From positions 7,936,001-8,000,000 of the forward strand of contig CM068752.1 of the NCBI GenBank assembly GCA_035084275.1: DNA of 64,000 nt, written 5' to 3'. Positions within the stretch are counted from its first letter, which is position 1, and each line of letters starts with the position of its first letter. The notes under the pieces were generated by a model. The model saw nothing but the letters and a program-made list of their open reading frames with translations. It did not search any database and was not told where the DNA came from. The position numbers were made by a program, and so were the translations under genes. The stretch comes from Hydrolagus colliei. Lineage: Eukaryota. This document shows positions 57,486 through 64,000 of the stretch, in pieces.

Positions 57486-60400
57486 ATGGTATCAGTGCAG
57501 AATATCTGCTGTATCGGTGCGGGGTATGTTGGGGGTCCGACCTGCAGCGTCATTGCACAGATGTGCAAAGACGTCACCGTGACTGTGGTGGATGTGAACC
57601 ATGATCGGATTAAAGCCTGGAATTCCAACCAGCTCCCCATCTTCGAGGTGAGGCTAAATTTCACCCACAGAATATAAATTCCACCCCTCCATCCAACACG
57701 CACACACAAAATACACAGTCAATTCACTTTTCAAATGCCAGGATTATTTATCTATTATTAAGTTCACCACTCTGCTAAATTGTCTCCCACTGTGTGGAAT
57801 TTGAGAGAGAGATTGAAAGAAAAGACTGAAATTTGGGGATTTGTTTCCTATAAAATAAACCGTAACCATTTTTAGCGAGGTAACAATTTTCCTTATGTCC
57901 AAAGATTTGAACAAAGGTAAGTTTATAATGTGTTGTAAGAGTACAGTATTGTACTTATGGGAGAGACATCTTAGCCTCTTGTCATGTGGAATCAGTTGTC
58001 AAACTCCCTTTGGGGGTGAAATGATGTGGCACATCCCCAGGACGTATTTAAGAATCATTCCGTCCTCCCCCAAGTTTCATGGTAGGCACCCCACCATCCC
58101 TGCCCTCCATCCTTCCTGATCCCAACTCCCAGCTCGGATCCAAATGCGTGACTGTCCAGTGCCTTGGGACATCTTCCTGGCGTGAAAGACGCCGTGTGAA
58201 TATAATTTATTGTTGTTGAAGATTCCTTAGGCTCTGGTTGAAATAACACAAATCCCTGTGGTTCCAAGGCTAAGTCTCTTGAGGTGTTAGTCTGTCCCTG
58301 TCTCACTGCACAACCTGTTCAGCACTGCCCATTGCCTGCTGAATGGTCTCTGTTTACAGACACCATCGTGGCTTTGTGGCCTTAGAGTTGTGGCACGATT
58401 AATTGCTCGTCATTCACGTGGTTGGTGGGGGGAGGGCAGTAGAGAGTGATAGGTACAAACTATCCGATGAACAAAGCACTCACTGTGCGATTGCAGGACA
58501 GTGTGGTGAATAGGACTCATTCATTGCATTGGAGTTGCAGCCATGAGCTGCAACTCCAATGCATTCAGCGATGGAGGTAAATAAGTGTTCTGTGTGAGCA
58601 CCTTAAGTCAGATCCTTACTCAAATCCAACCAACTGTCAATGGTGATTGATGAATAGCGGGACAGAATTAGATGAGGGAGGTTTAATGTTGTGCATGGGA
58701 ATGGGGTGGATTTCTGATTCAATAATGGTCAGTTAGTTGTTTTATTCCATGTAAAATTTGGATCTAACGTGAAGTTTGTCACAACAGCCTGGCCTGCAGG
58801 AGGTGGTGGAGTCTTGCCGTGGGATCAACCTTTTCTTCTCCACAGACATCGACGCCGCCATCAAAGAGGCTGATCTGGTGTTTATATCGGTAAGAAAGGG
58901 AGCGATTCTCTCCCTGTACGTACCTCTGTAATACTGTTTCCTGCTCACTGAATTAATTCTCTTTGCTCTAGTCCTGGAGTAGTCCCACAATAGAGCACTT
59001 AAGTGCTCTTGAGACACCACCCAGTGTGGGGGGTGCTATATAAATGTAAGTTGTCATCATCGAACAATATAGTCAAACCCGTTCAAGCAACCATCGCCTG
59101 TTAACTACTAACTTGGAATAATCCGCACAGTCACATTTACATACCAGAAATCCCTTACTTATGGGCCACCCTAGTATGAAGGCAACTTAGAGAGATTGAA
59201 GCCAGTTTTGACTGCATTTGAAGGTTGGGGGTCTGAATTTAGATGAGATGAATATTCAGATAGCCAATGTGAATGATCTGAGTGTGTTAAGAGTGGTACC
59301 CCCTGTCTGTGCGACAGGTGAACACTCCCACCAAGACCTTTGGGATTGGGAAAGGCCGCGCTGCTGACTTGAAGTATATCGAGGCCTGTGCCAGGAGGAT
59401 CGCTGAGGTGGGCAATGGCTGTAAGATCGTGGTGGAGAAGAGCACGGTGCCGGTCAGGGCTGCAGAGAGCATCCGCAGGATATTCAACGCCAACACCAAG
59501 TCCAGCCTCAATCTCCAGGTAAGACAGTAACACTGGCTGCCGGTTCATAATAATAATCATCATCATCATACTTCCATTTGGTGTAGAATTGATTATCGCG
59601 TCATTTCAGACTTCTCACTCCTGAAAAGAGCTTCACAGAGTATGTTGTAAAGTGGGTGATTGACTTGTTTATTTTATGGGTGAAACGTGGCAGTCAATTG
59701 TGCACAGCGGTGCACCACAAATAGTTGTAGATTTAGTGACCACGTTTTATTTTGGAAGGATTACTACTCCCCCACCAAATCAACTAACAATTGGGTTCCT
59801 ACTTACTGAGGCACGTGAAGTAAGGAAACCTACCTACGGTTTCACCCCGCTCGGGATATCAAACTCCTGCCCACTCGCTTGGAAGGCGAGTTCTCTTAAC
59901 AGGACTTGGTGTTCTTTGATACTTTATGAAGATACTTTATATCATTATGTTTTACGTTGGGAGTGTAAGACAGGGCTCTGGATGTCAGAGACTCATTTAT
60001 TTGTGGATGTGCTTGAGAATTGAGCAGCACGGTGATGGGGTTCCCTGTATTGGCTGTTTTACAGGTACTATCCAACCCCGAGTTCTTGGCTGAAGGAACA
60101 GCCATCGCTGATCTGAAAAATCCAGACCGGGTCCTGATCGGTGGGGACGAGACACCTGAGGGACAGAAGGCTGTGCAGGCTCTACGGAGTATCTATGAAC
60201 GCTGGGTCCCCAACAACAAGATCATCACAACCAATACCTGGTCATCTGAACTCTCCAAACTGGTACAGCATTCTCTCTTTACTCTGGGGGGTGATGTATG
60301 TGGTGGGGGGGGGGTGGTGGCACATCGTCTTCATCACTGCAGTGAGTGGTACAAGGCTAAAGCACACTACACACTTATCTATTAGAGTTGCATTGAAACT

Positions 60401-63400: not shown

Positions 63401-64000
63401 TGAGTGAGTGAATGCTAAGGAACACCCTGTTGAGTGCGGATGCTTGGCTTGTCGTCTAGCGTCTTTTTTAAGATCACGTTGTTTTCCAGGAGCTTGACTA
63501 CGAGCGGATCTATAAAGGGATGCTGAAGCCAGCCTTCATCTTCGATGGCAGACGTATCTTGGACAGTCTTCACCAAAAGCTTCAACATCTGGGTTTCCAG
63601 GTGAGAAAAACGGGGGAATGGTGGGAAGACATTTGGCTTGAGGAGCCTGATCTTGGGACTGTTTACAGCGTCTTGGGAAGTCCTCTCAACGTGAAAGGCA
63701 TGATACAAATCTTATTTGTTGCTTTTGTTAAGACTGTTTCTGCCTTTTCTTGAAATGCCTTTAATATAGAACCTGGGAGAAGGCCCTGTTTATATTCTTC
63801 CAATTCACTCTCTGCTTTCACCTCCCTCCCTCCCCCCCTCCCTCCCTCCCCCCCTCCCTCCCTCCCTCCCTCCCCCCCCTCCCTCCCTCCCTCCCTCCCT
63901 CCCTCCCATTAACAGGTGGAGACCATAGGAAAGAAAGTGACTGAGCGAATACCTTTCACAGCCAACAAAGACATCTCCAGGATCGACCTTCAAGCTCCTC
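57486..64000 (+). CDS. UGDH: UDP-glucose 6-dehydrogenase-like; last exon runs off the window
   Basis: Exons 57486-57647, 58788-58889, 59318-59518, 60065-60262, 61141-61288, 61435-61529, 61989-62119, 62278-62417, 62765-62856, 63490-63600, 63916->64000. NAD-binding [37 protein letters not shown], catalytic [10 protein letters not shown] and [14 protein letters not shown] are all intact. Confidence 0.95.
61640..61915 (+). mobile_element. L2-type LINE 3' fragment in a UGDH intron
   Basis: accattggtgggtgtgctttt...ctctggaactctctccct...aagaccttcctctttg...aagcgccctggg...ctctataaatg. Confidence 0.6.
63823..63907. repeat. (CCCT)n microsatellite
   Basis: Visible tetranucleotide repeat just before the last UGDH acceptor. 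Confidence 0.85.

What the first reader, a model, noticed from the sequence alone, without database searches (positions are those of the whole stretch)
57486..64000. UGDH beside APBB3: probable retained whole-genome-duplication ohnolog
Seen: an intact UGDH-like gene with its introns and catalytic Cys motif, about 10 kb downstream of IK, where human has WDR55-DND1-HARS1. Established: the single human UGDH is on 4p14 near APBB2, and 4p and 5q are paralogous segments from the vertebrate genome duplications. Inference: this is a second UGDH, paired with APBB3 as the canonical one is with APBB2, and lost in mammals. UGDH makes UDP-glucuronate for chondroitin sulfate and hyaluronan, so retention in a cartilaginous fish would be notable.
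Basis: partly seen in the sequence, partly recalled or inferred. Interest (0 to 1): 0.7.

Follow-up and report, generated by a model that had tools for sequence, protein, structure and literature searches.

The report
Second UGDH kept across jawed vertebrates
This cartilaginous fish has an intact second gene for the sugar enzyme UGDH, shared with sharks, sturgeons, salmon, salamanders, crocodiles and ostriches but not found in mammals; it likely dates from an early vertebrate genome doubling and is predicted to make the same product.

Summary
The gene is real: 11 coding exons, GT-AG introns, 495 aa, with every catalytic and switch residue checked intact. The genome holds exactly two UGDH loci. 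The other lies on the 156-Mb contig C1 beside LIAS-RPL9-KLB-RFC1 and is the human-type gene; the two are 78.6% identical and synonymous sites are saturated. The window protein falls in a separate, well-supported clade (99/93) spanning all main jawed-vertebrate branches. A recent chimaera duplicate is rejected (AU p=0.00026). Neighbouring pairs (APBB2/3, ARAP2/3, PCDH7/1) are published 2R sisters, so this is most likely a 2R ohnolog; the gene tree alone cannot exclude 1R. Orthologues occur in coelacanth, lungfish, bichir, sturgeon, eels, herrings, salmonids, salamanders, tuatara, crocodilians and palaeognath birds, and databases already call them 'UGDH-like'. This copy keeps cyclostome-like residues, e.g. 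Val127 near the Thr131 switch, where all 21 human-type rows have Thr. A skate RNA-seq table lists a probable orthologue as abundantly expressed in fin. Seven paper searches found no description; the scan had not noted it elsewhere. New member of a known kind; moderate-low interest.

The parts
57486..57647 (+). UGDH-like coding exon 1 (aa 1-54; NAD-binding glycine motif, Asp36)
   Evidence: (PF03721 E 3.9e-15)
58788..58889 (+). coding exon 2 (aa 55-88)
59318..59518 (+). coding exon 3 (aa 89-155): Thr131 loop and helix 6; Val127 codon 59432-59434, Thr131 codon 59444-59446
60065..60262 (+). coding exon 4 (aa 156-221; Glu161, Lys220)
61141..61288 (+). coding exon 5 (central domain; Asn224, Arg260)
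   Evidence: PF00984 E 6.9e-17
61435..61529 (+). coding exon 6 (catalytic Cys276 codon 61449-61451; Asp280)
61989..62119 (+). coding exon 7 (Phe323-Asn324-Thr325, Lys339)
62278..62417 (+). coding exon 8
   Evidence: PF03720 E 5.5e-5, under cut-off
62765..62856 (+). coding exon 9
63490..63600 (+). coding exon 10
63916..64000 (+). coding exon 11 (C-terminal tail); runs 23 bases past the window to the stop codon
930..6524 (-). synteny marker: APBB-family gene (WW and PID exons), APBB3 by position
39174..47090 (+). synteny marker: IK/RED gene, the upstream neighbour
29167..34804 (+). synteny marker: armadillo-type gene, TMCO6 by position and recall (weak Pfam support)
   Evidence: Arm E 0.039

Best explanation
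The gene is an intact second UGDH shared by all main jawed-vertebrate branches, likely an ohnolog from the second (jawed-vertebrate) genome duplication, and it is predicted to be an active isoenzyme that makes UDP-glucuronate. Shown: intact 11-exon gene; exactly two loci in this genome; a separate pan-gnathostome clade; position among human-5q-type genes while the human-type copy sits among 4p14-type genes. Inferred from conserved residues: two NAD+-dependent oxidations of UDP-glucose through a Cys276 adduct, a hexamer, and UDP-xylose feedback through the Thr131 loop. Inferred: it is a largely redundant isoenzyme kept for dosage and a partly different expression pattern in matrix-making tissues, which would explain why several lineages (mammals, and apparently neognath birds, squamates, turtles and most teleosts) could lose it. 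It keeps the older, cyclostome-like residue at most sites that separate the clades, so the human-type copy is the one that changed.
For: Two loci only: 20 of 20 matches of a lamprey probe fall on C19 (10) or C1 (10). C1 copy has the same 10 complete exon sizes, 78.6% identity, pS 0.77 saturated, dN 0.147; neighbours RFC1, glycoside hydrolase 1 (KLB), RPL9, LIAS. Tree of 60 rows: UGDH-like clade 26 rows 99/93, human-type clade 21 rows 99/99, each with cartilaginous, ray-finned and lobe-finned members; vertebrates 100/99. Recent duplicate rejected, p-AU 0.00026. APBB and DND1-family paralogues also pair C19 with C1. Lamb 2021 Table S1 puts APBB2/APBB3, ARAP2/ARAP3 and PCDH7/PCDH1 in quads A/B of paralogon 15, and A/B split at 2R. 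A sturgeon model fuses WDR55 to this gene, so the 5q-type position is shared with ray-finned fish. 31 of 32 functional positions checked are the same in all 26 UGDH-like rows as in the human-type rows. Expression of orthologues: skate 'Ugdh-2' LE00538, whose gene number lies among 5q-type genes, has baseMean 5531 in fin RNA-seq; full-length orthologue ORFs occur on 1.8-2.4 kb Logan contigs, too short to hold introns.
Against: The gene tree does not fix 2R: the node joining both clades without cyclostomes is 92/73, and trees with cyclostomes joined to the UGDH-like clade (p-AU 0.30) or to the human-type clade (0.106) are not rejected. Lamprey and hagfish each match the UGDH-like residue at 10 of 12 diagnostic columns, which would also fit a 1R split. 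The rate asymmetry is seen against cyclostomes (18 vs 38 changes, p 0.011) but not against amphioxus (23 vs 28, p 0.58). UGDH itself is not in the held part of Lamb's table. Activity, oligomer state and tissue pattern are untested. Losses rest on top-120 lists of cluster representatives, which missed known salamander copies. The skate assignment rests on gene numbers, not on sequence.
Confidence: 0.82

Rival explanations
1. The two copies split at the first genome duplication (1R), and cyclostomes kept the UGDH-like lineage.
For: Cyclostomes match the UGDH-like residue at 10 of 12 diagnostic columns; cyclostomes plus UGDH-like is not rejected, p-AU 0.30; identity to lamprey 85.7% vs 81.4%.
Against: The best tree puts cyclostomes outside both clades (92/73). 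The host segments are a published 2R pair for three neighbouring families. Shared old residues are expected if only the human-type copy changed.
Confidence: 0.1
2. A small-scale duplication in the jawed-vertebrate stem that was not part of a genome doubling.
For: The nearest genes (IK, HARS, LIAS, RPL9) have no tested counterpart at the other locus; no gene-by-gene collinearity survives.
Against: Same exon layout and landing on exactly the paralogous chromosome, where APBB and DND1-family genes also pair C19 with C1.
Confidence: 0.05
3. A recent duplicate or translocation within chimaeras or cartilaginous fish.
For: None found.
Against: p-AU 0.00026; saturated pS; 88% identity to a coelacanth protein against 78.6% to its own second copy.
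Confidence: 0.01
4. The copy is kept because a cartilaginous skeleton needs extra UDP-glucuronate.
For: UDP-glucuronate feeds matrix precursors (PMC10538703 passages); the probable skate orthologue is abundant in developing fin; the copy is very conserved in cartilaginous fish (89-98% among full-length rows).
Against: Kept in herrings, salmonids, tuatara, crocodilians and palaeognath birds. In the skate table it has the sign of Has2-1 and the opposite sign to Sox9, though that table's direction could not be read.
Confidence: 0.1

Closest known systems
Human UGDH (EC 1.1.1.22; PDB 3PRJ, 5VR8, 2Q3E and others)
   Same: Full-length match of the near-identical Callorhinchus protein at E 2.8e-273; Cys276, Asp280, Lys220, Glu161, Thr131, Arg260, Asn224, Lys339 and a tail of about 30 residues kept.
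   Different: Not its orthologue: the orthologue is the C1 copy. Twelve clade-separating substitutions, among them Val127 for Thr, Phe53/Tyr, Phe96/Tyr, Ala117/Val, Glu305/Asp, Ile306/Met. Human UGDH is described as the sole enzyme for this step (PMC3184952 passage).
RefSeq/UniRef 'UDP-glucose 6-dehydrogenase-like' proteins, e.g. Callorhinchus XP_042196093.1, Mustelus XP_078087878.1, Leucoraja XP_055498775.1, Acipenser XP_058852096.1, Struthio XP_068815767.1
   Same: Orthologues: 98.0% to the Callorhinchus protein, 93.5% to Mustelus, 83% to ostrich.
   Different: Only automatic names; several carry the plain name UGDH (Latimeria, Callorhinchus, Oncorhynchus, Microcaecilia rows), which hides the paralogy.
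Skate 'Ugdh-2' (LE00538) in PMC10115646 SI Table 5
   Same: A second Ugdh symbol whose gene number lies among 5q-type genes (Pfdn1, Cxcl14, Csnk1a1, Cd74, Gemin5).
   Different: One row of a differential-expression table; not discussed in the passages read and not compared by sequence.
Differentially retained 2R ohnologues (68 cases in PMC10115646, e.g. wnt6b, cspg5)
   Same: Same kind of object: a genome-duplication copy kept in some jawed vertebrates and lost in others (passage).
   Different: This one is kept in all three main branches, including tetrapods, so it falls outside the categories listed there; 'ugdh' occurred only in Table 5 of the held part of that supplement.

Membership tests
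Eukaryotic UGDH family | NAD-binding, central and UDP-binding domains (PF03721, PF00984, PF03720) | tested here: met
   Exon hits (third domain under cut-off as single exons); full-length PDB match through the 98%-identical orthologue.
Eukaryotic UGDH family | Catalytic and substrate residues Cys276, Asp280, Lys220, Glu161, Thr131, Arg260, Asn224 | tested here: met
   Present in the window protein and in 26 of 26 UGDH-like rows; residue roles from PMC3184952 passages and the PMC3265891 listing.
Eukaryotic UGDH family | Thr131 loop / helix 6 allosteric switch and C-terminal tail | tested here: met
   Residues 128-136 invariant in both clades; position 127 differs; tail of about 30 residues present. 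Sequence only; disorder was not computed.
Eukaryotic UGDH family | Oxidises UDP-glucose to UDP-glucuronate; hexamer; UDP-xylose feedback | not testable with these tools
   Needs purified protein.
Canonical (human 4p14-type) UGDH orthologues | Nests in the clade with mammalian UGDH | tested here: not met
   Separate clade, 99/93 against 99/99; 12 of 12 diagnostic columns UGDH-like.
Canonical (human 4p14-type) UGDH orthologues | Lies beside LIAS-RPL9-KLB-RFC1 | tested here: not met
   The C1 copy does; the window copy lies between IK and HARS/DND1.
Vertebrate WGD ohnologs | Duplication after invertebrate chordates and before the jawed-vertebrate radiation | tested here: met
   Vertebrate node 100/99; both clades hold cartilaginous and bony vertebrates; recent origin rejected.
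Vertebrate WGD ohnologs | Copies on paralogous chromosome segments | tested here: met
   UGDH, APBB and DND1-family genes pair C19 with C1; paralogon 15 A/B in PMC8040251 Table S1.
Vertebrate WGD ohnologs | 2R rather than 1R timing | tested here: inconclusive
   Synteny favours 2R; gene tree 92/73; AU p 0.106 and 0.30 for the alternatives.
Vertebrate WGD ohnologs | Lost in mammals | tested here: inconclusive
   26 of 26 new mammalian rows are human-type; no mammalian genome interval could be read.

The most novel reading that the evidence does not exclude
The pair is functionally split. The UGDH-like copy keeps the ancestral switch (Val127) and supplies UDP-glucuronate for developmental matrix under different UDP-xylose feedback, while the human-type copy gained Thr127 and other fixed changes soon after the duplication. 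The two may mix in one hexamer. The pair would then be a natural before-and-after experiment on how human UGDH allostery was tuned, and its repeated loss would mark lineages where one enzyme took over both jobs.
Probability: 0.15. Interest if true: 0.62.

Novelty: new member of a known kind. Interest (0 to 1): 0.36.

Why it matters
UGDH is treated as a single-copy bottleneck for glycosaminoglycans and glucuronidation, which holds for humans but not for much of the jawed-vertebrate tree. Knock-out, expression and drug-metabolism work in skate, shark, sturgeon, eel, salmon or axolotl has to tell two genes apart, and databases often give both the same name. The second copy is also a ready natural variant for testing UGDH allostery. 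It is not a new kind of system: retained ohnologs are common in these genomes.

Tried and rejected
Recent duplicate: rejected. Pseudogene: no stop or frameshift, all introns GT-AG. Cartilage-specific retention: rejected by distribution. Sequencing-run search: no RNA holder listed; no reads were laid. The 50%-cluster search and its look-up gave no named outgroups directly; one unnamed hit served as the query that did. One search used a wrong Pfam accession and is uninformative. APBB paralogue naming by PDB and Atlas was inconclusive. blastn between the two loci returned mostly many-to-many repeat matches and was not used. No clear CpG-island promoter between IK and the ATG. The direction of skate SI Table 5 could not be read: anterior markers Alx4 and Pax9 and the posterior marker Grem1 share one sign. 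Three papers on UGDH allostery were not held, so the role of residue 127 could not be checked in print. No structure or complex prediction was run: at about 80% identity to solved hexamers it would pass by likeness. Earlier scan notes concern other genes.

Full report
Observation. The window holds an 11-exon UGDH-like gene from ATG 57486. All ten introns are GT-AG and the spliced frame has no stop. The window is G000:C19:7936001-8000000; the next stretch gives the stop 21-23 bases past the window end and a 495-aa protein. Single exons hit PF03721 and PF00984 over cut-off and PF03720 under it. The nearest named protein is Callorhinchus milii XP_042196093.1 at 98.0%, so the host is likely a chimaera. 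IK ends near 47.09 kb, 10.4 kb upstream.

Copy number and the other locus. Three probes (one exon, PF00984, full-length lamprey UGDH) find two loci only; with the lamprey probe 10 of 20 matches are on C19 and 10 on C1. The C1 gene (60.518-60.533 Mb of a 156-Mb contig) has the same sizes for the ten complete exons, encodes 496 aa and is 78.6% identical. Synonymous sites are saturated (pS 0.77) and dN is 0.147; GC3 is 0.65 for the window copy and 0.47 for C1. On one side of the C1 gene lie LIAS, a ribosomal L6-family gene, a glycoside hydrolase 1 gene and RFC1, the human 4p14 order as I recall it. On the other side lie BBS7 and an ion-channel gene. SMIM14, an RBM47-like gene and an APBB gene sit together at 17.4-18.1 Mb of the same contig, so the 4p14-type block is split by an intrachromosomal rearrangement. 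The C1 gene is the human-type UGDH.

The window's neighbourhood. From a simple exon predictor checked by Pfam and PDB: annexin, GEMIN5, APBB (WW+PID), a DUF4535 small ORF, an unidentified minus-strand gene, an armadillo-type gene, IK, the UGDH-like gene, a CRAL-TRIO gene, HARS, DND1, then a cadherin cluster. That these are human 5q31-33 genes is recalled, and agrees with the human coordinates of APBB3, ARAP3 and PCDH1 in Lamb's table. WDR55 is on C33 here, but a sturgeon gene model fuses WDR55 to this UGDH-like gene (P0142), so the gene sits in the same neighbourhood in ray-finned fish. The APBB gene is about 51 kb away; its APBB3 label rests on position (searches were not decisive).

Distribution. 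Of the 120 proteins listed for exon 3, 38 are closer to the window copy than to the C1 copy. With cluster members they cover chimaera, sharks, rays, coelacanth, lungfish, caecilian, salamanders, tuatara, crocodilians, palaeognath birds, bichirs, sturgeons, paddlefish, gar, bowfin, eels and tarpons, bonytongues, herrings, smelt, pikes and salmonids. A tuatara query added 76 proteins: 12 UGDH-like, 63 human-type and one mussel. All 26 mammalian rows among them, and the neognath bird, turtle and neoteleost rows, are human-type. These are top-120 lists of 90% clusters, and one search missed salamander copies known, so absence is not proven, least of all for frogs; I recall a Xenopus symbol 'ugdhl', from no call.

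Tree. I chose 60 rows (58 of the proteins then held, mostly one near-full-length sequence per lineage, plus both own copies), most labelled from blast before the tree was built. IQ-TREE gives a UGDH-like clade (26 rows, 99/93) and a human-type clade (21 rows, 99/99), each with cartilaginous, ray-finned and lobe-finned members, inside a vertebrate clade (100/99). Lamprey and hagfish fall outside both, but at 92/73. Holding the four chimaera sequences together is rejected (p-AU 0.00026). Joining cyclostomes to the human-type clade (0.106) or to the UGDH-like clade (0.30) is not. One UGDH row was found in the hagfish gene table (PMC10972751 supplement).

Which duplication. Lamb 2021 (PMC8040251; passages, supplement rows, file cut when stored) lists APBB2/APBB3, ARAP2/ARAP3 and PCDH7/PCDH1 as quads A and B of paralogon 15 (human 4 and 5, chicken 4 and 13, gar LG4 and LG6), and A/B split at 2R. 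UGDH, DND1, RBM47, RELL2 and FAM114A2 are not in the held part. In this genome APBB paralogues lie on C19, C1 and C6, which fits B, A and D. A large-contig/small-contig pair with the small one GC-rich also fits the pattern described for skate (PMC10115646 passages). Simakov 2020 (PMC7269912) gave only two general passages. So 2R is inferred from neighbours, not shown by the gene.

How it likely works. Of 32 positions checked, 31 are the same in all 26 UGDH-like rows as in the human-type rows. Roles for Cys276, Asp280, Lys220, Thr131, Arg260, Asn224 and Lys339 come from PMC3184952 (passages and Results part 1), Glu161 from the PMC3265891 listing, the Thr131-loop/helix-6 switch from PMC11713868 passages and the disordered tail from PMC10538703 passages; the other positions are recalled. 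The prediction is an ordinary NAD+-dependent UGDH hexamer with UDP-xylose feedback. The one exception is residue 127, four before Thr131: Val in 25 of 26 UGDH-like rows, both cyclostomes and all 11 invertebrates, Thr in 21 of 21 human-type rows. Twelve columns separate the clades; lamprey and hagfish each match the UGDH-like state at 10. Relative-rate tests show fewer changes on the window copy against lamprey (18 vs 38, p 0.011) and hagfish (17 vs 37, p 0.009) but not amphioxus (23 vs 28, p 0.58); over 11 species pairs p<0.05 was reached in 2, 5 and 0 pairs. I read the copy as a conservative, largely redundant isoenzyme kept for dosage and a partly different expression pattern. This last step is inference.

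Expression. The little-skate supplement (PMC10115646, SI Table 5) lists 'Ugdh-2', LE00538, baseMean 5531, log2FC 1.88, padj 8.4e-17. Neighbouring gene numbers are Pfdn1, Ltc4s, Dusp1, Cd74, Cxcl14, Csnk1a1, Cxxc5 and protocadherins, so it is probably this ohnolog; this was not checked by sequence. The direction of the contrast could not be read. Full-length orthologue ORFs on Logan contigs of 1.8-2.4 kb imply spliced transcripts in a skate and in teleosts. There is no direct expression evidence for the window's own species.

Novelty. Seven full-text searches (listings only) found no paper on a second vertebrate UGDH; most subscription papers are not covered. Supplements of PMC8302630 gave no hit, with one file not searched; cut or unseen supplements and ohnolog databases may list the pair. 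The scan's earlier notes hold nothing on it. Databases already carry the orthologues as 'UGDH-like'. A real, apparently undescribed, widely retained ohnolog of a well-studied enzyme: new member of a known kind, interest 0.36.

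Noticed in passing
window 20238-26996 (-): Multi-exon coding candidate between the DUF4535 ORF and the armadillo-type gene; looks kinesin-like by eye with coiled-coil exons, but no convincing Pfam or PDB hit.
   Followed up: partly
L013:1445-2517 (-), just past the window end: Compact CRAL-TRIO gene (PF00650, E 3.6e-17) tail to tail with the UGDH-like gene; I recall no such gene in the human interval, so it may be another gene lost in mammals.
   Followed up: partly
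window 13314-13934 (+): Two-exon small ORF with DUF4535, recalled as the microprotein of the SLC35A4 locus; a main SLC35A4 ORF was not among the predicted exons.
   Followed up: partly
G000:C33:3553832-3558446: WDR55 has left the IK-HARS block in this genome, while a sturgeon model shows it directly upstream of the UGDH-like gene.
   Followed up: yes
window 59318-59518 (exon 3): Isoforms lacking exactly residues 89-155, the exon with the Thr131 switch, are annotated for both paralogues (7 UGDH-like and 4 human-type rows checked). Either a very old skip event or annotation carried over from the human isoform.
   Followed up: partly
G000:C1 60.53-60.60 Mb and 17.4-18.1 Mb: The 4p14-type block is broken just upstream of UGDH; SMIM14, an RBM47-like gene and APBB2 lie 42-43 Mb away.
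   Followed up: yes
proteins P0009, P0026, P0186, P0562: Eels appear to carry two UGDH-like copies besides the human-type gene, probably from the teleost duplication.
   Followed up: partly
protein P0230: An alligator model with the UGDH-like tail has an altered NAD-binding motif and missing pieces, while crocodile and gharial copies are whole: decay in progress or a poor model.
   Followed up: no
window 54650-55510: Minisatellite of about 850 bases (GGGAGCTGGGCT plus GT runs) 2 kb upstream of the ATG exon.
   Followed up: no
L013-L015 (C19 8.008-8.021 Mb): HARS and DND1 both lie on the + strand, HARS first; relative to IK this is inverted against the human order as recalled.
   Followed up: partly
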